DNA of 63,538 nt, the filler included, from Klebsormidium nitens (taxonomy: Eukaryota > Plantae > Klebsormidiophyceae): assembly GCA_000708835.1 (NCBI GenBank). It is 5 parts of 5 records of this genome, joined end to end, with 100 filler letters (N's around TTAATTAATTAA, not from the genome) between each part and the next. Parts side by side here need not be neighbours in the genome. Positions count along the whole stretch, not along the records: positions 45,201 to 63,538 come from DF237569.1; 4 more parts are not named here. One strand, written 5' to 3'. Positions 10,663 to 60,855 of the stretch are shown here, piece by piece; the stretch's first letter is position 1; the number at the start of each line of letters is the position of its first letter. The notes beneath the pieces are model-generated. The model did not search any database. It was given only the letters and a program-made list of their open reading frames with translations, and was not told the origin of the DNA. The position numbers were made by a program, and so were the translations under genes.

Positions 10663-10762
10663 NNNNNNNNNNNNNNNNNNNNNNNNNNNNNNNNNNNNNN
10701 NNNNNNTTAATTAATTAANNNNNNNNNNNNNNNNNNNNNNNNNNNNNNNNNNNNNNNNNNNN
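10663..10762. other. Assembly contig-join spacer (44 N + TTAATTAATTAA + 44 N); identical spacers at 26667-26766, 41766-41865 and 45101-45200
   Basis: The same 100-bp construct with a six-frame stop linker occurs four times. Confidence 0.97.
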
Positions 10763-26581: not shown

Positions 26582-26885
26582 CCGACTCAATCTATCTCAT
26601 GTCGAATCCAAGTCTGCTCGTTCACCGCGGCTCCCACTCGTTCCTATTCAGCAGATGCCACACCGANNNNNNNNNNNNNNNNNNNNNNNNNNNNNNNNNN
26701 NNNNNNNNNNTTAATTAATTAANNNNNNNNNNNNNNNNNNNNNNNNNNNNNNNNNNNNNNNNNNNNCGGTGATCCGGTGGCTTTTCTAGTTCAATACAAA
26801 TGGCGTCAGAAAAGTTTCATAAAAAAATCTAATTTAGGAATAACTATAAAGTAGAGGACCGTAGAGGAATTTCCATAAATGTGAA

Positions 26886-41474: not shown

Positions 41475-41866
41475 GCAAGCCGTCTGCAATCTTTTTGTGT
41501 CCTTCGACGCAGGCGTGTTCGCTCATAACCTTTATTATCAACTTTCACGCTCATAAGGCTTCGCAGAGCGAGCGCAGGACCGATCAGAGGACCGATGCCA
41601 AAGCGACCGAGTTGACATTATGAAATTGTCTGGAACTCCAGAATGAGAGCGCTTTTCCTGCACTCTTGGAAGCTTACGTACTTGAGCATTCCTCTACCCT
41701 CCTCCATCTCTGCTGTCTCATCCCCGCTCATCAAGCTCAATATTGCGCTCAAACTTTGAGCGATGNNNNNNNNNNNNNNNNNNNNNNNNNNNNNNNNNNN
41801 NNNNNNNNNTTAATTAATTAANNNNNNNNNNNNNNNNNNNNNNNNNNNNNNNNNNNNNNNNNNNNC

Positions 41867-45097: not shown

Positions 45098-45200
45098 CGG
45101 NNNNNNNNNNNNNNNNNNNNNNNNNNNNNNNNNNNNNNNNNNNNTTAATTAATTAANNNNNNNNNNNNNNNNNNNNNNNNNNNNNNNNNNNNNNNNNNNN

Positions 45201-48200
45201 GATCTGTTCGCGGAGCGCCCGTTCTTTCTCTGCCCCTTTCCTGAGCCGCTCGGCGTCCGCAGCGCGCGCCCCCTCGTACTCTGCTTCCATCACCTTCGCC
45301 AATTCCCGCGTCCACATCTCGTGGTCCCGGTACATCCTATTCCACTCTTCGCTACCTCCTCGGCGGAACTTTCTCTCGCTGCCCGGCAGTCCGCGAGGGA
45401 CGCCTCCAACCCACGCACGCGCTCTGCGTTGCCGGCACCGGCCCCTGCATATAGGCATGTCTTCAGATCGTCGCTGACTCTCTTCAGGGACGCGTCGGCC
45501 TCCCCGAGCCGACCTGCGGTCTCTCGCAGCCGTCCCTCGCTTTCGAGCATATCGGCCTCGCTCTTCTTCAGGAGGTTCTCGAGCTTTGTCTTCTGCGTGG
45601 TGAGGTCGGTGAGCTGCTGGCCTCCGTTCGCCAGGCGTCGTGATGCCGTGTCGACGAGGCTCTCGACCGTCTGCGCGGGATCGACTCCGAGCGCTCTTGT
45701 CAGACGGCCTCTGAGGCGCGCCGCGCCCGCCGTCGTGCGGGACGTGACGGCGCGTAGCTGCGTCAGCATGAGAGGGACGGGGCCCGGGTCCTGGGGGGGA
45801 ACGGACGGCGTGTCTTCGAAAAGTATCCGCGCGGCGCTCTCCAGGTCGCCCGAGATCCGGACGATCCCGTCCGACACCGCCACGACATGTTGCATGGCTA
45901 TCGAGGCCGTCTGCGTCGTCAACGTCGGCGGCTGGACGGCTCTCGAAACGGTGGCCTGCAGATACTCAACGACCTGCCTCGCATCGTGGTACGAGTTCCG
46001 GCGTCGTTTCAGGAGCTCCACCGTTGACTTGGTATCTAGCTTCTCCGGCGCACCGTATCCCATGGCCACATCCCCGTCGAGCTCGCGGAGCAGCGCGGTC
46101 GCGTCCGCCACGTCGTTCTGGCCCGTCTCGATCAGCAGTGCGTTGACGTGCGCCTCCGCATCCGCCGCGGTCCGCATGTCGGTGCCGCAGACGAGCCTGA
46201 CGAGCCCCGGGCACTCCAGGGCGACGGGCGCCCCCCCGCGCGCGTTCAGGACCTGGGGCGTGAGCGTCAAAAGCGTCGTCTCGGTCGAGAGCGGCGTGGC
46301 GGCGTCTCCCTTTCCGAGGTGGGTGAGACATTGCCCCCGGACGTTCCGGACGAACTCGAGGAGGAACCTTACATCTCCGGGGATTACACAGTCGTTGAAC
46401 TCCCAGGTGGGTTCCCTCACATACAGGGTGTTTCTGAGGTCCACCAGGTCGCGGTCCGAGCCGTGGGCCATGCCGGCGCAGAGCTCCAACTTTGCGGCCA
46501 GATCCTCGCAGCGTCTCTTGAAACCATCACCGTCCCCCACCTTCGACCGTATGTGCTCTTTCAGGGCCGGGATGGCGGCCCGGACCAACACCCCTCGCGC
46601 ATCGAACGCCTCCCCGATCTTCTCGAGCACGCCCCCGGATGCCAGGAACCGGACGGAGTTCGTCCGCAGGAACCGGATGGCGCAGTCGGCATCGCGTTCG
46701 TCCCTGGAGCAGCTGGTCTTATCGAAGCCGTAGGTCCCCAAATTTCTCAAGATCTCATCTATGCCCTCGACCAGCTTCCCGTGATCGTGCACGATCTCGT
46801 CGATCGATTTCAGCCCGGTTCCGGCGTAGAGGTGCTCCATCCGTCGAATCGCGTCCTGAGGGCCGACCGCGGCCGGTGCCGGCACGTTCGCGCNNNNNNN
46901 NNNNNNNNNNNNNNNNNNNNNNNNNNNNNNNNNNNNNNNNNNNNNNNNNNNNNNNNNNNNNNNNNNNNNNNNNNNNNNNNNNNNNNNNNNNNNNNNNNNN
47001 NNNNNNNNNNNNNNNNNNNNNNNNNNNNNNNNNNNNNNNNNNNNNNNNNNNNNNNNNNNNNNNNNNNNNNNNNNNNNNNNNNNNNNNNNNNNNNNNNNNN
47101 NNNNNNNNNNNNNNNNNNNNNNNNNNNNNNNNNNNNNNNNNNNNNNNNNNNNNNNNNNNNNNNNNNNNNNNNNNNNNNNNNNNNNNNNNNNNNNNNNNNN
47201 NNNNNNNNNNNNNNNNNNNNNNNNNNNNNNNNNNNNNNNNNNNNNNNNNNNNNNNNNNNNNNNNNNNNNNNNNNNNNNNNNNNNNNNNNNNNNNNNNNNN
47301 NNNNNNNNNNNNNNNNNNNNNNNNNNNNNNNNNNNNNNNNNNNNNNNNNNNNNNNNNNNNNNNNNNNNNNNNNNNNNNNNNNNNNNNNNNAGCAGCTGGT
47401 CTTATCGAAGCCGTAGGTCCCCAAATTTCTCAAGATCTCATCTATGCCCTCGACCAGCTTCCCGTGATCGTGCACGATCTCGTCGATCGATTTCAGCCCG
47501 GTTCCGGCGTAGAGGTGCTCCATCCGTCGAATCGCGTCCTGAGGGCCGACCGCGGCCGGTGCCGGCACGTTCGCGCAGACGAGGGCGACGACCCGCCTGT
47601 TCGCTTCCTCGCCTCTCTCGACCGCCTCTACGAGCTGCGGGAGCGTCGTGGCGGCGACTAACGTGGCGCGTCGGAGACGTTTCGCGTTGGTGTCGATCGC
47701 TTCGACGATCTCAGAGGCGAGTCCACTCCAATCGAGACGCGCGGAGGCGCCGTCGTCCGGGACCAGCCGGGAACGGGCGGTGGCCAACTTTCGGTGGAAG
47801 TCCTCGGACCAGGTGCGGAATTGCCGAAGTAGCTTCGATAGCCGCTCGCGACTTCCCGGTGCGGTCAGTAGGATTCTGTGGGCCGCGGTGGGGTCGGGTG
47901 CACCCGAGGAATCGAACAGCTCGTACAGACCGCTCCTCTCCTCGTCCGCCGCGCGTGCCCAATTCCGGAAGAGCTGTGCCGTCATGGGCAGAACTCGTGC
48001 GATGTTCCCGTCGATTCGCTCTCGTGCCTTGGATGTCCACGCCGTAGTGTGCATCTCGACGCCCAATTCGACGTCTTCCTGGGCGCTGACGCCGTCGGGG
48101 GCCGCAGGCGGAGGAGGTCCCGTCGGTGGGGGCACGCGCATCAGCTTATCGTAAGCGCCGACGAACGCATCGTACTCCTCGTCGCCCAGCAGTCCTCTGA

Positions 48201-50749: not shown

Positions 50750-52000
50750 ATGGCTTCGGCGGGTCCCAGCACCGGCACGCTCCTGCAGCTGCGGCTCGCC
50801 GGCCTCGAGGATAGACACCTCTGGATAGACCCGCAGGCGACGCTCTTCGGCCCCGCCAAGCCGGCGGATCACAGGCCCTTCTCGGCGACGGTCATGGAGT
50901 GCCTCTTCGAGAGTCAGCCGCTGCCCGCCTCGCGCGCCACGACGGGCCTGGCTTCCGCGTGCGCCCTCCGCAAGTCCGGGTCGCACGTGGGCATGATGCA
51001 CCTGGAGATACGCCTCCCTCTCGCGGACCCGGCGAGCGGGGCCCCCATCCGGTACCGTCCCCGTCTCGGCGCCTTCATCGTCGAGACGGCGAGGCTGACG
51101 TCGTCCGGGCGGGAGCTGGAGCGCCTGAGCGGGGCGGCCATGCGGTGGTACTTCGAGACGGTGGACCCCAAGTTGCGCACGGACGCCCGGGCCCGCGCGG
51201 CGCTGTTCTCGGCGACAACCGTGGGGGCCGAGGTGCTCGTCCTGGTCCCCCTCCCCTTCTTCTTCGGCAGGAGCGCGGTCGGGGAGAAGCTGCCGGTGCG
51301 CGGGAACGACGTCGTGCTCGAGGTGACCCTCGCGTCGCCGGACGCCTGCACCGAGGCGGGGAGCGGGGCGCCGCCCGAGATCGTCCCGACCTCCACCAAG
51401 GTCGTCTTCGACTCCTACGCGTCCGGGGATCCCGGCAGCCCGCAGCTGATCACGCAGATGCTGTCCCAGGTGGAGCCCGTCAAGGCGGACGCCCTCTCGT
51501 CGCAGTCCGTGCATCTGAACTTCAACCAGCCGGTGAGGCGGATCGGCTGGTTCTTGGAGGACGCGAGGGGGGACGTCGTCGATTCGGCGATCCGGGCGTG
51601 CGGCATCTCGCTGAACGGCGTGAGCTACACGCAACGGTCCTCCCCGGACGGGCTCAGGGACGAGAGCTACTTCAGGCTCCTGAACCCGTTGTTCCACGGC
51701 GGCATGCCGCGACGGGGGTACTACTCCTTCGCGTTCGCCCTGGATGCCTCCGACGGGCTGGAAGCAGTGGGCGACCTGGCGGGGCGGACGGGGCCGATCC
51801 TGTACCCGCTGGGGCCCGACCCGGCCACCCCGCCGGAGCTGGTGCGGCAGCCCAACGGCGCCCTGGACCTGTCCGGGTTCACGGTCATGCTGAACCTCAA
51901 GTACGTGGACCCGTCGGTGACGCTGCGGGGCTACCGGCTGGTGGTGGTGGCGGAGGGCTACGACGTGCTCTCGGAGCGCCTCGAGCTCTCGCACATATAA
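50750..52000 (+). CDS. Divergent NCLDV major-capsid-protein (double jelly-roll) paralogue
   Basis: N-terminal GTLLQLRLAGLEDRHLWIDPQATLF matches MCP [25 protein letters not shown]. C-terminal LNFNQPVRRIGW, SLNG, GYYSFAFAL, QPNGALDLS and VVAEGYDVL match the MCP C-terminal motifs. Confidence 0.88.
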   Translation: MASAGPSTGTLLQLRLAGLEDRHLWIDPQATLFGPAKPADHRPFSATVMECLFESQPLPASRATTGLASACALRKSGSHVGMMHLEIRLPLADPASGAPIRYRPRLGAFIVETARLTSSGRELERLSGAAMRWYFETVDPKLRTDARARAALFSATTVGAEVLVLVPLPFFFGRSAVGEKLPVRGNDVVLEVTLASPDACTEAGSGAPPEIVPTSTKVVFDSYASGDPGSPQLITQMLSQVEPVKADALSSQSVHLNFNQPVRRIGWFLEDARGDVVDSAIRACGISLNGVSYTQRSSPDGLRDESYFRLLNPLFHGGMPRRGYYSFAFALDASDGLEAVGDLAGRTGPILYPLGPDPATPPELVRQPNGALDLSGFTVMLNLKYVDPSVTLRGYRLVVVAEGYDVLSERLELSHI

Positions 52001-52038: not shown

Positions 52039-52935
52039 ATGGACGCCCTGAACGCCCCCCTCCTGGTGGAACTCCTGGACGTCCATTCGAACATCGATGC
52101 CACGACGTTGAGCGCGCTGGCCTGCACGTCAAAGTCCTTCGAGGCGGCCGTGTCCCTGGTCTGGCCGGACAGGGAGCGAGCGTACGAGGAGAGTAGAAAC
52201 GGGGCGAACGTGCCGAGGGGGGAGTCCCTCCCGCTCCCGATGGACCACGACGTCCGCCTGTTTCCGGACGCGAAGACTGCGTGCACGTACGAGCTGCTCG
52301 AGCGGGCAGAGGGAAAGCCCCTCGTCGTGCTGGAGATGGATTCCGATGAATCGGAGAGGACTCGCCGCAACGCATTGATGCCGGGCGAGCTGGCCAAGCG
52401 GGATTACTTCCTGGACACGGCGGACCTGAGGTTGCTCCGACCGTTCAGGGACGGGAAGGGGCCGCGCTGGTTTCGGTTCGAAGACGTCCTGAGCGCGGCG
52501 ATGCTCCGTCACGGCAGGAGACGGCTGGCGGACATGATGGTCGCCCGCGCGACCAAGCGCGGACGCACCCACCGGCGACAGGGGGAACGTTGGAGGGCGG
52601 TGTGGTCCTTGTCCGACCGCCTCCTGTTGCCGGGTGAAATCAGTACGAGCGTCGTGCGCACGTACGCCGAGGACTACGTCCGGGCGGGGCGGGGTGGCAT
52701 CCGCGGCTTGAGGAATCGGCTCATCATGCAAATCATGTTCTCGTCCCGAGTCCATACGCGCGCTACTCCGTTCGAACTCCGTGGGCCGCTGTTTCCGCCG
52801 GATCTGGGGCCGCTCGAGCGGAATGCGATCGAGCGCTTGCAGATCGCGTCTGTGATGACGGAGGACGAGGCACTCATCGAGCATGCGATTGACGTCGTCG
52901 CGCGGATGCGTCGGGCGGCCTTTGGTGTCACATAA
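52039..52935 (+). CDS. F-box-like N-terminus plus XPA-C-like domain protein
   Basis: N-terminal LLVELL...IDATTLSALACTSKSF is F-box-like. AKRDYFLDTADL...WFRFEDVLSAAMLRHG resembles the XPA C-terminal Ak..YlL...dL...LY....V...A...wG pattern. Confidence 0.6.
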   Translation: MDALNAPLLVELLDVHSNIDATTLSALACTSKSFEAAVSLVWPDRERAYEESRNGANVPRGESLPLPMDHDVRLFPDAKTACTYELLERAEGKPLVVLEMDSDESERTRRNALMPGELAKRDYFLDTADLRLLRPFRDGKGPRWFRFEDVLSAAMLRHGRRRLADMMVARATKRGRTHRRQGERWRAVWSLSDRLLLPGEISTSVVRTYAEDYVRAGRGGIRGLRNRLIMQIMFSSRVHTRATPFELRGPLFPPDLGPLERNAIERLQIASVMTEDEALIEHAIDVVARMRRAAFGVT

Positions 52936-52950
52936 GGAAGGGGAGGGGCG

Positions 52951-53253
52951 TCACCGCAGGAAGGAGAGCAGGATCAGGAGCAGCCCGAGGGAGCCTACGC
53001 CGATGCAGATCATTCCCAGGTTCTTCCCTCGAGGATCGTCTCCGGAGCCTCCATCGAAGCGTTCCTCCAGGACGTAGTCGCCCATCTCGTCCGCCTTGTC
53101 GTCATTCTCGTCGGCGTACCTGACGTAAGCCGTCGCCAGGGCCTTCCTCGCCGCCACCCGCTGCAGCCATTCTATCCTGTTGGAGACGGCGTTCGCGTAC
53201 AGCTTCTTCCCCCACCTGCGCTCGGCGACCCACTCCGTCGGAGGCAGGCTCAT
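52951..53253 (-). CDS. Small protein with a C-terminal TM helix
   Basis: 100-aa ORF ending MICIGVGSLGLLLILLSFLR. Confidence 0.5.
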   Translation of the reverse strand: MSLPPTEWVAERRWGKKLYANAVSNRIEWLQRVAARKALATAYVRYADENDDKADEMGDYVLEERFDGGSGDDPRGKNLGMICIGVGSLGLLLILLSFLR

Positions 53254-53316
53254 CGTTCGTACAAGCTCCCACGAATTTTCATGGAGGGACGGCGAGAGCC
53301 GGCTCCTATGCGGGGC

Positions 53317-54227
53317 ATGGACGCCTCCGTGCTAGTGGAGCTGCTGGACAACCACTCGGACATCGACGCCACGGCGTTGAGCGCGCTGGCCTGCGCGTCC
53401 AACTCGTTCGAGGCGGCCGTGCGTTCGGTGTGGCCGGCAAGGCGGGATGCGTACGCGCGGAGTCGGGAAGGGGCGGCGCCAGAGAAGCGGAAGGCCCTCC
53501 CGATCCTACACGATCCGATGGAAATGTACCCCGACCCGAAGGAGGCCTGTCGCTACCACTTGCGGGACCGCCCGCGCCGCGAGCCGAACGTCGAGCTGCA
53601 TTGGAACGAGAAGCCGATGATCTCCTTCGGCTGGGAGCAGGAGCTCTCGGACTGGACCCGGCGGACGGCGTTGGTGCCCGTCGCCCTGGCCAGGCGGGCC
53701 TACTTCCTGAACTCCAAGGACCTGAATATGCTGCAGCAGTACATGGTGCGGCCGTCCAGGGGCTGGAACGGGCCGCGCTTCTACAAGTTCGAGGAGGTGC
53801 TGGCGGCGGCGATGCTGCGCCACGGGAGAGGCCGACTGGCGGACAAGATGTGCGCCCTCGTATCCAGGACGACGCCAAGGCACGGGTTCGGAAGGAGCGC
53901 TGGCACTCCGTCTGGGACGTCGTGTCCACCAAGGGGATCGCGGAGGACTACCTCACCATGAACGTGGTGTACCCCTACGCGAAAGAGTTCGTGGACACGG
54001 GCCGGGGGGGCATCCGAGGCTTCGAGAAGCGCATCCGTCGGCACCGGACGTTCTCGTTCCTGGTCAGCAGGGGCACGGTGAACGCGCCGCTCTATCTCAG
54101 GCCCCTGGAACGCATCATGGTCTCTCACCTGCAACTGGCGTACGTGCTGACCCGGAAGGATGACTTCGTGGCGGACGCTCAGCGGGTGGTGCGGGATCTG
54201 CGGATCGCGTCGGGGGTGGTGGGCTGA
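53317..54227 (+). pseudogene. Paralogue of 52039-52935 with a 1-nt frameshift at ~53870
   Basis: One frame aligns with the paralogue up to MLRHGRGRLADKM. The remainder (ERWHSVW...YAKEFVDTGRGGIRG...PLERIMVSHLQLA) is in the adjacent frame. Confidence 0.8.
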
Positions 54228-54285
54228 GCGGGAGGCGTTCGGGAGGGTCAGAATATAATCGGAGTCTCGGCGTAGGATCGGACAG

Positions 54286-54894
54286 ATGCGGGTGCACGAT
54301 ACGAGAGAGGATATGATGCGGAGCATAGTGAGCGAGAGTGGTTGGAAGATGGCGGAGGTCGGAGTCTTCGTCGGAGACTTCTCGGAGTTTCTGACGACGC
54401 TGGAACCCGCGGAGTTGCATCTGATAGACCCGTTCGAGGGCAGGTTGTGTTCGGGAGACCGAGACGGTGTAAATATCCGCGTTTGCGATGGAGACGACGC
54501 GTACCATTACGTCTGCAATAGGTTCCGAGGAGACGCTAGGTTTCGCGTGCACCGGGGCGCATCGCCCGGAGCGTTTTTGCGTTTCGATCATGGTTATCTC
54601 GACCTCGTGTTTCTGGATGGTCTTCACACCTATGATGGCGTCAAGAAGGATCTCCGCGCGGCCCTCTCCAGGGTGCGCAAGGGTGGCTGGATCACGGGGC
54701 ACGATTATGACGTCAATCCCGAGAGATGTCCGTACGAATATACCTTCGGGGTCAGAAGGGCCGTAGATGAGTTCTGCGAGACCCACAGTCTGACCGTGTC
54801 TCACATCACCGACGATGGTTACAGGAGTTATGCCATCCAGACTCCTGAGTACGGAGTCGAGCCAGTAGCAAAGCATTGCAACACGCTTGTATGA
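54286..54894 (+). CDS. Class I SAM-dependent methyltransferase (Methyltransf_24-like)
   Basis: EVGVFVGDFS (motif I), LHLIDPF, LDLVFLDGLHTYDGVKKDL and GGWITGHDY. Confidence 0.88.
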   Translation: MRVHDTREDMMRSIVSESGWKMAEVGVFVGDFSEFLTTLEPAELHLIDPFEGRLCSGDRDGVNIRVCDGDDAYHYVCNRFRGDARFRVHRGASPGAFLRFDHGYLDLVFLDGLHTYDGVKKDLRAALSRVRKGGWITGHDYDVNPERCPYEYTFGVRRAVDEFCETHSLTVSHITDDGYRSYAIQTPEYGVEPVAKHCNTLV

Positions 54895-55014
54895 TGAGGC
54901 TACTGATGCTCGCTTAAGGAAGCACAAATCCTGAAATCTAACAGCTTTAGTTGGAAGTTCAAGGGGGGCTTGTCTTTGCGTTTTACCAGTTCGGAAATTG
55001 TATATTCTCACATT

Positions 55015-56178
55015 ATGTCATCTTCGAGGATGGACGCCGCAGTCGCTAAAGAGGTGAAACTGCTGCCGTGTCGCTTCTCCGGCTGCGCGAAGGCTTATAA
55101 AGCTGAATCAGGCCTTAGACGACATTTCCGTGCTCATACCAAAACTTGCGCACCAGCGGGAACAGAGATGGGCTGGAAGCGACATTTCAAGTACCGTCAT
55201 ATATACGGACTTCCTGACGGCAGGGTCTGGAGCTGCGCAAGTGGGCGGTATCTGACCGGAACAAAGCGCAATGGTTATATCAAGGTAGATGTTGATGGCA
55301 AAAATATCAACAGACACCGCCTCAACTTTGAGATTGCTACGGGACGTGCGATCGCTCCAGGCATGCATATAGACCACATTGTACCTTCGCAAAAGGAGGC
55401 AAACAGCTCCGAACGGCAAGCCGAGGACGACAGTTGGGCGAACCTTCAAGAGATGACGCCGGCAGAGCATATGCGGAAAACTCACGCGGGTAATGCGAAC
55501 AGAAAACAGAAGGATACTTGCGTCCCGGTGTTGGCAGCCCATGTTACCGATGGCGAAACAACGCGCTACAACTCAATGCATGATGCAGCAGCTGCTCTGG
55601 ATCTAAACGTCCAGGCTATCAAGAGACGCATTCGACAGCGTTCAAGCAAGGCAGTTGGGGGATATGTCTTCAGCATATGCCCAGCGCATCTGATAGATCA
55701 GGACGACAGAGAGGATGAGGTCTGGGTTGACGCAATCGTGGATGGAACACCTCTCGATGGTTGGAAAGTCAGCTCGGTTGGCCGGGTCCAGCTACAAAAT
55801 GGACGACGCACCGAGGGCTACGTTTCGAGAGGACGGCGGAAGGTGATACAAGTTAAGAAGCGAGGGTTGATAGGTGTACACGCAATAGTGGCTCACTCAT
55901 TTCTGGGGCCTCCACCGACCTCGAAGCATACCGTAGATCATATCAACCGAGAAAGAGCAGATAATAGACTCAAGAACCTATGATGGGCCACTCCGGAAGA
56001 ACAGGCGCGGAACAGAAAGTCTAGTAAGCAGGTCCATAAGTACGACACTGCATGGAATATCCTGAAGACATATGGAACAATCCGGGAGGCCGCAAAAGAT
56101 AACAATCTGACGGAGAAAGTGCTGATATATGCGATTAAAGTAGGCAAAATGGCAGGTGGATTCAAGTGGCAAAGATAA
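55015..56178 (+). pseudogene. HNH homing endonuclease (C2H2 finger, 2 x HNH, 2 x NUMOD1-like) with an in-frame TGA at 55981-55983
   Basis: CRFSGCAKAY...LRRHFRAH; HIDHI...NLQEMT..EH; YNSMHDAA; VHAIVAHSFLG...VDHINRERADNRLKNL*WATPEEQARN. The frame continues through YGTIREAA...GGFKW to TAA at 56176-56178. Confidence 0.9.
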
Positions 56179-56183
56179 CACGA

Positions 56184-56423
56184 ACACCTATGAAGGCCGC
56201 CGTGAGAAAGGACCTCCGCGCGGCCCTCTCCAGGGTGCGGAAGGGTGGCTGGATCACGGGCCACGACTATGACGTCAATCCCGAGAGATGCCCGTACAAA
56301 TACACTTTTGGCGTCAGACGTGCCGTAGATGAGTTCTGCGAGACCCACGGTCTGACCGTGTCTCACATCACCGACGACGGATATAGGAGTTATGCTATCC
56401 GGACTCCGGCGTGATACGGAGTC
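56184..56423 (+). pseudogene. Displaced duplicate of the methyltransferase 3' end (homologous to 54626-54858)
   Basis: Encodes KDLRAALSRVRKGGWITGHDY...YRSYAI.TP. Homology starts at ACACCTATGA, 5 bp after the HNH stop codon. Confidence 0.93.
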
Positions 56424-57079
56424 CGCCGATGGCACGTATCTGGAGTCCACCGAAGTGGCGACTTAGGCCGTGGTCAGTTGCTTCGAGATGGCCAAAAATC
56501 TAGAGTTGACTGCTGCACTTCGGTGTTCACACACGGAACCGGCTGCCGACAAGCCATATTCTTTCTCACATACTACCACCCCGGACCAAATCATCATGCC
56601 ATGAGATGTACTCCGCCATTGTAGGACATGAACATCGGCAGGCGTTGATGGCTCTCGACGGATGTCTGGCGGTTCTGCATCAAGAGATATCTATGTTCTA
56701 CTACATCGCTCCACAGCAGCGGCACATCCGCATGATGGCGACATCCTGTAAAGATCAAACGTAGCCCGATCGTCGTACTCAAATGCCAGTAGAGTCCAAA
56801 TGGTCGTTCCAGACATTCACACGCCTCTCCTTCATGTCATCAGGCCCAGTTCGTATGAGATGCTGACGCACAAATAATGCAACGCGTTGCAAAATCTCAG
56901 AATCAATGGTATATCTGAGCACCGGCAATATAAGGTCACAAAACCTATCATTACACTTTCTTGCGAAAAGCCGTCCTTAATCTGCAACTTCTTATAAGAC
57001 ACCCTCAACTGCTTGTCATCCTGAAACACCTGGGTTCGTGGTCTCTTTTCTTTCACAGGTCTCGCGCGACTGCTGATGT

Positions 57080-57830
57080 TTAACTCAGTGGTTCAACCAG
57101 CTCTGTATCTCTCTGCAGTAAAAGCCTTCTCAGAGATGCACAGGCCTCTCGTGCATCGTCAAACAGTGGAAACAGAAGACCTCTCAGTATAGGGCCTGAT
57201 TTGTTAGTCGATGTGACTGGGAAGCGGATGTCCCATCCTTCTGGTGCCCATGCAGAGAGCGGGATCCACGGCAGATAGTGTTTGCTGAAGTTACGCAACG
57301 AGTTGGCATCGATCCCGCCACTTACGGAACGGTTACGGGTCCTATTCTTGATGTCTCTTAGCTCTGCAAAGCGCGGATCAAGAAAGGTGCCATCTCTAGC
57401 CCAATAGATACGCCCCGCAGTTGCCGGCTGAGCAATCTTCTTCTCCACAAACACCGCCAACCCATCAAATAGTGCCATCAGTAGGGACGTGCCGACTTGA
57501 AAGTGGTAGCACATTAACAAGTGGTCCCCCCCCTGCTGCGCCTCTCGCAGAGCATCCACCAAATGCTCGCGGGTGAAACGGAGAGCAGTACCGAACGATG
57601 CCATCACACCCGGATCATTCAGACCAGCAATGGGGTCGAATAGGTCCTCAGCATCCTGCAAAAGAAAAGCAATGTCGAGCATTTTGCCAAGGGCTGCAAC
57701 TTTTGATGACCAATGATAATATCCACAGCGCAGCTGCCGCACAGTGCGTTTTAGAACAGAGACCAAAAACAAACACCAAAGCACCAACCCACGGAGCCCG
57801 ATTTGAGTACTTACCATTGCAACAGCAGTG
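57080..57830 (-). CDS. Probable spliced hypothetical gene, terminal exon ~57080-57740
   Basis: Long open frame with an ATG|GTAAGT donor (~57813) and a downstream GCAG| acceptor (~57740); no recognisable domain. Confidence 0.4.
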
Positions 57831-58474: not shown

Positions 58475-59242
58475 TCAGGCTGCGAGGCCCGGGGCGGGGG
58501 TGGGTTGGGGGATCTCGGCATCGCTCCTGGGTCCGTCGCCCCACAGAGGGTTCAGGCCGGCCAGGGAGCCCCCGATGAGCGGCCCCGCCAGAAAGACCCA
58601 GATCTCGGACCATTGGTGGCGGGCGTTGCTCCCCGACGCGACGGCGGCACCGATGGACCTCGCCGGATTGATAGACGTTCCGGTGATGGGGATGAGCGCG
58701 AGGTGGCAGACGAGGACCGCGCCGCCGATGGCGAGAGGCCCGTGCCCGTATTGCTTGGTGGCCAGGTATGATACGTGCAGGACGACGGTGACGAGGAAGG
58801 CCGTGGCGACGATCTCGGCGATGAGGGCCTGCCAGAGGGCGTGCCCGTGCGTCACGTAGTTGACGCCCCTGCCGCCCGCGTCGTAGAGGTCCCAATCACT
58901 GACGAGACGGGCGAGGCACGCTCCGCACGTGGCTCCGAGGAACTGAGCGGTGCCGTACAGCGCCGCACGAACAGGCGAGATGCTCTTGCGGACGAGGAAG
59001 CCTAAAGTAACCGCCGGATTCAGATGCGCTCCGCTCACGTCTCCGAAGGTGTACGCGAGAGTGCTGATGGTGACGCCGAACACGGTGGCCACTCCGATCG
59101 GGGCGAGTAGGTTCGCGACGCCCAGGGCTTGATCGGCGGGGTAGTTGACGACGGTGGTGATCACGGTGAACAGGAAGAGGCCGCTGCCCACGAATTCGGC
59201 ACAGGTCGCTCGATAGAGGGGGCTCTCGTAGAGGCTAGGCAT
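58475..59242 (-). CDS. Aquaporin (MIP family, PIP-like), intronless
   Basis: Both NPA boxes intact (SGAHLNPAVT, GTSINPARS); six TM helices; LYRATCAEF and HLALIPITGT are PIP-like. Confidence 0.96.
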   Translation of the reverse strand: MPSLYESPLYRATCAEFVGSGLFLFTVITTVVNYPADQALGVANLLAPIGVATVFGVTISTLAYTFGDVSGAHLNPAVTLGFLVRKSISPVRAALYGTAQFLGATCGACLARLVSDWDLYDAGGRGVNYVTHGHALWQALIAEIVATAFLVTVVLHVSYLATKQYGHGPLAIGGAVLVCHLALIPITGTSINPARSIGAAVASGSNARHQWSEIWVFLAGPLIGGSLAGLNPLWGDGPRSDAEIPQPTPAPGLAA

Positions 59243-59449: not shown

Positions 59450-60855
59450 CTACGCCTTTGCTGGATGTACACTCCTACATGCTATCTTTCTATATTGGTA
59501 GCAGAACTCTGACTCGTCCTCCAATTCCAAGATCCTTTCCTCCGGATAGCCTATGAAATGAAGCAGTACCCCGGCCTCATTCTGCGCGCTCTTGTAATCA
59601 AGAAATAGGGTTCGAAGAATGTTCTCGAGTAGATTGTAGCGTCCTTCGCAGGATTGAAGCGCACAAGATGAAGCGGCACCTTTAAAACATCCTTGATCTT
59701 CCCAATGCGGTCGGCCTCGCACTCGACGGCGTAGTAACGATGGTAGGACTCGTCAACCTCCAGGATGACGACGTGTGTCTGGAACACGAAGACGTAGTCG
59801 GGGCGTGTGATGCACGAAGTGCTTTGCTTTGCCAGGTTCCGGGCGCAAGGGAGTTGCTGATCGCAGTAAGACCATACCCAGCCCAGCTGCGTCAACCACC
59901 TGGTCGTGTATACCTCCCACTGTTTGAGCGAGGTACCGGACCGGCACGTGTAGCAGGCGGCGCCTTCAAAATGCACGGAGACCTCAGAGCATACACAGCA
60001 ACGACGGCCGCCCCCGTGCTTCTTGCAGAAGGTTGATCCTCGGGCAGCTGTCTCGCATCCGGCCTCCTCGCACCGCTTGCCGCCGCCGTGCTTGATGCAA
60101 CGATCCGTTGGCCCTTCTGCGCCCTTATCGCATCCCGTTTCCTTGCATCGCCTACCACCTCCGTGCAATCTGCAGAATCATGTCGGTTTTACAGCGCCAC
60201 TCGCGCATCCGGCCTCCTCACACCGCCGGCCGCCCCCGTGTCTGGTACAAAGTAAGGATCCACTGAGCGCAGAAGTGCTGCAGCCGCTCTCTTGGCACCG
60301 CCTGCCACCACCATGTTGCTTACAAAAAGACGTTCCTCCCTGCGCGGACTTATGGCAGTCGACTCCCGCACACCTCCTGCCGCCACCATGATTGATACAC
60401 ATATTGGATGTGCCTACCGCCGACTTATCACATCCTGGCTCTAAACAGCGCCGACCGCCTCCGTGTTTGATGCAGAAGTTTGTAGACCCTTGTGCAAGCC
60501 TGTTGCATTTGGCATCGTGGCACCGCCGACCACCTCCGTGCGTTGTGCAAAAGTCGGACGGTCCAATTGCAGCCTTACTGCATCCTGTCTTTTGACACCG
60601 AGCCCCCCCGCCGTGTCTCTTGCACAACATGGTTCGCCCTATCGCGCCCTTGTTGCAATCGGGGGCCTGACATCGTCGCCCTCCGCCGTGCTTGGAACAG
60701 AAGTTGGCTGCGCTGACGGAGGACTTGCCGCACCCTGGGTGTTGACATCTGCGACCGCCGCCATGCCTCTTGCACAAGCCTTTCGCTTGCACTCCATTAG
60801 TACAGTCGTCATGGATGCATATTCTACGCTTAGGCTTACTGCCTGCGTCTTCCAT
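59450..60855 (-). pseudogene. GGGRRC (WRKY19-like zinc-finger) repeat protein with a C-terminal PD-(D/E)xK/Vsr-like endonuclease; one nonsense codon and one frameshift
   Basis: About ten C..GC.K.A.G....C..HGGG.RC units. In-frame TGA at 60180-60178 (KPT*FCRLHGGG). RPDYVF...ILEVDESYH...EADR...LVRFNP; the C-terminus continues in another frame after ~59648. Confidence 0.85.

What the first reader, a model, noticed from the sequence alone, without database searches (positions are those of the whole stretch)
54286..56423. HNH endonuclease that appears to have invaded a viral methyltransferase gene and supplied it with a replacement 3' end
Seen: the HNH gene (55015-56178) lies between two copies of the methyltransferase 3' end, 54626-54858 and 56184-56423. 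Over 67 aligned codons (KDLRAALS...TP) I count 15 synonymous and 3 non-synonymous codon differences, so both copies evolved under purifying selection, which a recent neutral tandem duplication would not show. Homology starts at the conserved DGxHTY motif and only 5 bp after the HNH stop. Known: homing endonucleases target conserved motifs, and in fungal mitochondria C-terminal insertion elements rebuild the host gene with their own 3' end while displacing the original. Inference: the mobile unit is [foreign methyltransferase 3' end + HNH], inserted at ~54626, with the original end stranded downstream. I am not aware of this having been described for giant viruses.
Basis: partly seen in the sequence, partly recalled or inferred. 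Interest (0 to 1): 0.85.

Follow-up and report, generated by a model that had tools for sequence, protein, structure and literature searches.

The report
Homing nuclease splitting a viral methyltransferase
In giant-virus-like DNA of a green alga, a now-broken DNA-cutting-enzyme gene sits between two differently spelled copies of the end of a methyltransferase gene, and it likely spread between related viruses by cutting that gene and bringing its own replacement ending, a trick described in yeast and fungal mitochondria but not found in my searches for giant viruses.

Summary
The copies 54626-54858 and 56184-56423 are 87% identical, with 15 synonymous and 3 non-synonymous codon differences in 67 (dN/dS about 0.06). 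The similarity starts inside His114, one of 7 invariant positions of 188, 5 bp after the HNH stop. The two ORFs match a Klebsormidium nitens gene model letter for letter.

Between the loci the element (upstream end plus HNH) differs at 12 of 394 residues, the flanks at 20 of 183 (p=0.0003). That locus's stranded end groups with full-length, normally ending alleles (95/87). The HNH is an I-HmuI-related, two-unit giant-virus-type nuclease, truncated differently at each locus.

Best reading: intron-less homing of the yeast WHO / fungal mitochondrial type (0.65). Passive recombination is not excluded. No DNA of other alleles, no reads and no cleavage data were available.

The parts
54286..54894 (+). 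Class I SAM-dependent methyltransferase ORF, 202 aa, intact frame; probably a chimera of a resident 5' part and an element-borne 3' end
   Evidence: Pfam Methyltransf_24 E 1.4e-14; model pLDDT 85, best Foldseek matches include several small-molecule O-methyltransferases, TM about 0.6; relatives of 188 aa up to 94% identical
54626..54858 (+). Upstream copy of the 3' end (codons 114-187 plus a few bases), in frame with the gene; the likely replacement end
   Evidence: 2 of 84 residues differ from the second-locus protein P0011
54847..54894 (+). C-terminal extension caused by loss of the usual stop; low-confidence in the model; shared with P0011 for 10 residues
54895..55014 (+). A+T-richer spacer (42% GC), likely holding the HNH promoter (inferred; not tested)
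   Evidence: its last 13 in-frame codons translate identically to the start of P0027
55015..56178 (+). HNH endonuclease gene, 387 codons with a TGA at codon 323: C2H2 finger, then two I-HmuI-like nuclease and DNA-binding units
   Evidence: Pfam HNH_3 E 8e-16 and I-HmuI NUMOD-like E 1e-4; I-HmuI 1u3e best PDB match by profile (E 1e-12) and by fold (E 5e-8); EsV-1-119 and other giant-virus HNH proteins by fold
56179..56184 (+). Right junction: 5 bp after the HNH stop, joining to the second base of the His114 codon
   Evidence: the 14-residue junction peptide is identical in P0014; His114 is invariant in 67 of 67 rows
56184..56423 (+). Stranded 3' end with the family-typical stop (56412-56414), a 4-base insertion near 56198-56201 and 9 bp of shared 3' flank; likely the displaced resident end

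Best explanation
The HNH gene and the methyltransferase 3' end in front of it likely form an intron-less homing element of a Klebsormidium-associated giant virus, which would cut an element-free allele near the His114-Thr-Tyr codons and be copied in by recombination, leaving the gene whole and the old end stranded behind. Shown: the layout, the two selected copies, the junction in an invariant codon, and the same junction peptide at a second locus with different flanking alleles. Inferred steps: (1) in a co-infected cell the HNH nicks or cuts a sensitive allele at or near the D-G-x-H-T-Y codons; (2) repair copies from the donor, using the shared 5' part on the left and the stranded 3' copy on the right as homology; (3) the recipient gets the donor's 3' end, respelled near the site and so likely resistant, plus the HNH gene, while its own end is pushed downstream; (4) the structure probably first arose when an HNH gene lying behind one allele was joined without homology to the cut end of another; (5) both known copies later decayed, probably after entering the algal genome.
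For: dN/dS 0.06 with dS 0.43 means the copies diverged as working genes. Full-length relatives end at T-P-x-stop like the downstream copy; only the window and P0011 carry the extension. The junction is in His114, one of 7 invariant columns of 188. P0011, P0014 and P0027 share contig length 34,940 and reproduce the extension, the junction peptide and the spacer peptide. Between loci: upstream end 2/84, HNH 10/310, 5' part 15/113, stranded end 5/70 differences. Element 12/394 vs flanks 20/183, p 0.0003. The flank values match the spread among P0002, P0010 and P0013 (5' part 9/113-22/104, 3' part 4-7/74). P0014 groups with P0010 and P0013 at 95/87. The nuclease is related to the homing enzyme I-HmuI, and its first unit keeps D120-H121...N143...H152.
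Against: No cleavage data. The 5' tree is unresolved among the six close alleles except P0011+P0012, and the window's stranded end is unresolved in the 3' tree. For the methyltransferase 3' parts alone, 2/84 vs 5/70 is not significant (p 0.25); it becomes 0/84 vs 5/70 (p 0.018) only after a transition filter chosen afterwards. Differences next to the junction are not significantly enriched (4/21 vs 19/201, p 0.25). Of four shared 5' sites that separate P0010 from P0013 types, site 70 points against the pairing. The target is probably an accessory gene, while homing enzymes are usually found near essential genes (PMC10448857, section 21). The second nuclease unit has Q at the position of I-HmuI N96 across the family.
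Confidence: 0.65

Rival explanations
1. A one-off non-homologous recombination joined a donor's methyltransferase gene plus neighbouring HNH gene to the 3' part of another allele. The HNH is a passenger with some other target, and ordinary homologous recombination between related viruses later put the block on different flanks.
For: It gives the same layout and the same element-versus-flank pattern. The alleles look mosaic in any case.
Against: A random breakpoint would hit an invariant codon about 4% of the time (7/188), and it would have no reason to fall 5 bp after the HNH stop.
Confidence: 0.2
2. An old tandem duplication made two full methyltransferase paralogues; the HNH gene then replaced the 5' part of the second one.
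For: A tandem paralogue pair lies just upstream (52049-53860, 70-77% identity). Both copies show purifying selection.
Against: No two full-length close relatives share a contig length. The stranded end groups with full-length proteins that sit on their own contigs. The stranded ends of the two loci differ as much as independent alleles do, while the junction peptide is the same.
Confidence: 0.08
3. The insert is an intron (self-splicing, or a spliceosomal homing intron as in mirusviruses), and the downstream copy is the true last exon.
For: The public gene model P0015 removes the HNH as a GT-AG intron. One GC-AG pair joins homologous positions (54638/56196).
Against: No Rfam match at E<=1 over 54200-57200. 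The gene model yields a doubled C-terminal half, not a restored gene. The only homologous GT-AG pair (54609/56167) drops His114, and the GC-AG pair is out of frame in the window. The upstream copy already completes the gene.
Confidence: 0.04
4. Assembly artefact joining two viral haplotypes.
For: The window is a draft assembly with gaps and joined contigs; no reads could be laid.
Against: The junction, spacer and extension peptides recur in separately deposited metagenome proteins whose sequences differ from the window's.
Confidence: 0.03

Closest known systems
WHO elements at yeast FBA1 (Coughlan et al. 2020, PMC7282813; abstract and passages read)
   Same: Endonuclease gene between a full-length host gene and a 3' fragment of it; fragments begin at about one position; the unit is the nuclease plus the upstream 3' end; the fragment need not keep its frame and serves as homology.
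   Different: WHO proteins are intein-related zinc-finger fusions, cleavage was shown, the target is an essential nuclear gene, and clusters build up. Here the enzyme is an HNH, the target is a viral methyltransferase, there is one insertion, and cleavage is untested.
Mobile-ORF 'gene hybrids' of fungal mitochondria: Allomyces atp6, Glomus atp6/atp9/cox2/nad3 (PMC3630166, passages); Phlebia atp6/cox2 and Ophiostoma rps3 (PMC4019555, passages)
   Same: Inserted C-terminal part in frame with the gene, endonuclease ORF behind it, native C-terminal part displaced and clustering with uninvaded relatives.
   Different: Organelle genomes, LAGLIDADG or GIY-YIG enzymes, core respiratory genes.
Free-standing T4 endonucleases, intron-less homing: Seg and Mob (PMC2988022, passages)
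   Same: HNH or GIY-YIG gene next to its target gene, spreading by break repair with co-conversion during co-infection.
   Different: The passages read describe intergenic genes with distant cut sites and no duplicated gene end (the stem 'duplicat' has 0 hits in that paper).
I-HmuI (PDB 1u3e) and giant-virus HNH proteins such as EsV-1-119
   Same: Nuclease and helix-turn-helix units align; the D-H motif is kept.
   Different: I-HmuI is a single unit and intron-encoded (recalled). This protein has two units and an N-terminal C2H2 finger, and is not in a detectable intron.
Intron- and intein-borne homing endonucleases of Bodo saltans virus (PMC5871332, passages) and mirusvirus spliceosomal homing introns (PMC12768974, passages)
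   Same: Homing-type HNH genes inside genes of large eukaryotic DNA viruses, proposed to act in co-infection.
   Different: Those keep the host gene intact by splicing; here it is kept intact by a second copy of the gene end.

Membership tests
WHO elements | Nuclease gene between a full-length gene and a 3' fragment of the same gene | tested here: met
WHO elements | Fragments start at the same position in different loci | tested here: met
   2 of 2 loci; the second is known from protein only
WHO elements | Intein-related nuclease fused to a zinc finger, related to HO | tested here: not met
   HNH_3 and I-HmuI matches only; works like WHO, not a member
WHO elements | Discordant trees for the 5' and 3' parts | tested here: inconclusive
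   3' tree separates P0014+P0010+P0013 (95/87); 5' tree mostly unresolved
WHO elements | Allele-specific cleavage of the host gene | not testable with these tools
   needs an assay
Fungal mitochondrial mobile-ORF gene hybrids | Inserted C-terminal part in frame; native part displaced and grouping with uninvaded relatives | tested here: inconclusive
   Frame met; grouping met for P0014, unresolved for the window's stranded end; uninvaded status of P0010 and P0013 inferred
Fungal mitochondrial mobile-ORF gene hybrids | LAGLIDADG or GIY-YIG enzyme in a mitochondrial gene | tested here: not met
I-HmuI-like HNH endonucleases | HNH nuclease unit plus NUMOD1-type helix-turn-helix | tested here: met
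I-HmuI-like HNH endonucleases | Catalytic D-H...N...H/N residues | tested here: inconclusive
   Unit 1 has D120 H121 N143 H152; unit 2 has D308 H309 but Q at the I-HmuI N96 position and is cut by the stop (residue roles recalled)
Group I or II intron | Recognisable ribozyme core | tested here: not met
   0 Rfam matches at E<=1
Spliceosomal homing introns of mirusviruses | GT-AG ends whose removal restores the host gene | tested here: not met
   2 homologous donor-acceptor pairs found; neither restores the window's gene; RNA not examined

The most novel reading that the evidence does not exclude
Klebsormidium-associated giant viruses carry a diversified family of two-unit HNH nucleases that home without introns, each bringing a respelled end of the gene it cuts. 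Here one targets the codons of the most conserved motif of an accessory methyltransferase, swaps about 40% of the protein, and was caught on two different allele backgrounds, so such elements would drive allele exchange even in non-core viral genes.
Probability: 0.4. Interest if true: 0.7.

Novelty: new variant of a known kind. Interest (0 to 1): 0.55.

Why it matters
Free-standing HNH genes are common in giant viruses (362 structural matches at E<=0.001 in the viral library), but the giant-virus papers I read describe homing only through introns and inteins. A duplicated end marks the likely cut site to within a codon and so gives a ready substrate for testing what these nucleases do. It also means viral gene trees can be chimeric, and that annotation can hide such elements: the public gene model treats this HNH gene as an intron.

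Tried and rejected
No whole genome is held for the window and no read evidence was obtained, so splicing and element-free DNA remain unseen.

Viral-contig scans with three HNH alignments found 18, 25 and 65 pattern hits and 0 confirmed relatives. An exact junction pattern found 0.

The 166 fetched methyltransferase loci were 6 of 6, 80 of 85 and 80 of 161 confirmed hits. They are distant: full-length matches are at most about 45% identical. 0 of 166 had a match to the HNH profile; 9 of 166 had two methyltransferase-like hits, and none of these had an HNH match. This is a weak control.

A search for short stranded fragments returned 1 of 1 candidate, P0203, which starts before the motif and so is not of this kind. 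The phage collection gave only partial matches of about 28-34% among the 15 of 130 records shown.

Gene conversion from the upstream copy does not explain the window's stranded residues 146-151, since silent differences are dense there. CpG is not depleted (observed/expected 1.0-1.3), so decay is light. The bacterial promoter scan was at chance level and is not suited to this virus. A sequence-profile search of the PDB gave nothing for the methyltransferase; its substrate is unknown.

Full report
Observation. The region holds one long direct repeat, 54626-54858 against 56184-56423, 87% over 240 columns. Over the 67 codons from KDL to TP there are 15 synonymous and 3 non-synonymous codon differences; dS 0.43, dN 0.026, Fisher p 6e-8. 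Seven of the 19 base differences are transversions, so the divergence is not only methylation-type decay, although all three amino-acid changes are G/A changes at CpG. Between the copies lie a 120-bp spacer of 42% GC and an HNH frame, 55015-56178, with a TGA at codon 323. The downstream copy starts 5 bp after the HNH stop, has 4 extra bases near 56198-56201, and ends at a stop after T-P-A. The upstream copy lacks that stop and runs on 14 residues.

Source and setting. The window's upstream ORF (first 201 residues) plus the downstream frame equals the Klebsormidium nitens gene model P0015 letter for letter. That model removes 54889-56195 as an intron and so yields a doubled C-terminal half. The window is a join of contigs, and the piece holding the finding starts at 45201. 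On that piece an ORF at 50750-52000 has weak matches to giant-virus capsid profiles (E 5e-6 and 5e-4, below the curated cut-offs). The best methyltransferase relatives among viral contigs, 38-42% identical, include giant-virus MAGs. Phycodnaviridae-like core genes are reported in the Klebsormidium flaccidum assembly (PMC5294986, passages). An endogenous giant virus is therefore likely, but I did not show integration.

The host gene. It is a class I methyltransferase (Pfam Methyltransf_24). The model is confident to about residue 190 and resembles O-methyltransferases among others; the substrate is unknown. Close full-length relatives P0002, P0010 and P0013 end at T-P-x-stop, like the downstream copy. 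In 67 aligned rows (60 viral after collapsing 79 at 90% identity, plus 7), His114 is one of 7 invariant positions of 188. Three of those 7 were part of the retrieval patterns; His114 was not. The junction falls inside the His114 codon.

The nuclease. The profile of 16 family members matches I-HmuI in two stretches and C2H2 fingers at the N-terminus. The model (pLDDT 80, pTM 0.38) matches I-HmuI in the PDB, and EsV-1-119 and many giant-virus HNH proteins in the viral library. Unit 1 keeps D120-H121...N143...H152. Unit 2 has D308-H309 but Q where I-HmuI has N96, in all 14 relatives where the motif was found, of 17 checked (catalytic roles recalled). Relatives have R at the stop position in most rows, so the stop is probably a decay mutation. 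Apart from P0027 the near-full-length relatives are 38-51% identical. GC3 is 0.52 for the HNH, 0.66-0.71 for the methyltransferase parts, and 0.88-0.95 for two upstream ORFs.

A second locus. P0014 begins with the same 14 residues that the window's junction gives, and has no frameshift after them. P0027 begins with the 13 residues that the window's spacer gives and is truncated at a different place, residue 311. P0012, on a short contig, also has the upstream-type end as far as it goes. Only P0027 exceeded about 56% identity to the HNH among all proteins fetched. Hence P0002, P0010 and P0013 are probably element-free, but their DNA was not seen.

Element versus flanks. Window against second locus: 5' part 15/113 differences, upstream end 2/84, HNH 10/310, stranded end 5/70. 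Element 12/394 against flanks 20/183 gives p 0.0003. The 5' part is more variable by nature, but both flank values lie within the range among P0002, P0010 and P0013, while the upstream end lies below it. Nine of the 12 element differences can be single transitions; none of the 5 stranded-end differences can. Both stranded ends share R120 and R185 with P0010 and P0013; both upstream ends share K120 and Q185 with P0002. At the second locus the 5' part (E78, L97, M108) and the stranded end (Q146, F150, P151) both match P0013. The window's 5' part matches P0010 at those three sites, and site 70 disagrees. The 3' protein tree groups P0014 with P0010 and P0013 at 95/87 and leaves the window's stranded end open; the 5' tree is largely open. 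For the methyltransferase 3' parts alone the contrast is not significant without the after-the-fact transition filter (p 0.25 against 0.018). So the block has very likely been moved onto different alleles; the data do not separate homing from ordinary recombination.

Mechanism. I favour intron-less homing with a replacement end (0.65), as set out in Best explanation. The sharp junction at an invariant codon right behind the HNH stop is what tips it against passive recombination (0.2). Respelling next to the junction (4 differences in 21 bases) fits self-resistance but is not significant. An intron is not supported.

Known systems. It works like the yeast WHO elements (PMC7282813) and the fungal mitochondrial gene hybrids (PMC3630166, PMC4019555, PMC7487136; passages). 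It is a member of neither, since the nuclease is an HNH. In giant viruses the papers I read describe homing endonucleases in introns and inteins (PMC5871332, PMC12768974). Five searches aimed at viruses (listings only, apart from the papers named) showed no description of this layout in giant viruses. The library lacks most subscription papers and I read no supplements, so absence from print is not proven. Unchecked notes from this scan report the same layout at polB, nrdB and capsid genes of other giant viruses and in phages. These are leads, not support, and they suggest the pattern is widespread rather than unique to this locus.

Verdict. A real feature and a new variant of a known kind. 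What stands out is the long replaced part (74 of 188 codons), the accessory target gene, and two loci with differing flanks. Interest 0.55.

Noticed in passing
P0055 (K. nitens model, 605 aa, 7,941-bp contig): It aligns to the HNH in two separate stretches, as if two tandem family members were fused in one gene model; tandem nucleases would resemble WHO clusters.
   Followed up: no
window 52049-54227: Two tandem paralogous ORFs of unknown family, 70-77% identical in DNA; the second appears to change frame near 53870.
   Followed up: no
window 58475-59242 (-): Uninterrupted aquaporin-family ORF, Pfam MIP E 8e-55, on the same contig piece as the capsid-like gene.
   Followed up: partly
window 59551-60855 (-): Two adjacent ORFs of WRKY19-type zinc-finger repeats; the second ends in a segment that recalls a restriction-like nuclease (recalled resemblance, untested), possibly one split mobile gene.
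   Followed up: no
window 50750-52000 (+): Divergent capsid-like ORF with weak Capsid_NCLDV and Capsid_N matches below the cut-offs and GC3 0.95.
   Followed up: partly
window 10663-10762, 26667-26766, 41766-41865, 45101-45200: Four identical N-flanked spacers mark joins between contigs, so genes before 45201 are not necessarily linked to this locus.
   Followed up: yes
window 54622-54624: The window and four close alleles have Leu at position 113, where P0013 and most of the family have Asp; it is not specific to the element.
   Followed up: partly
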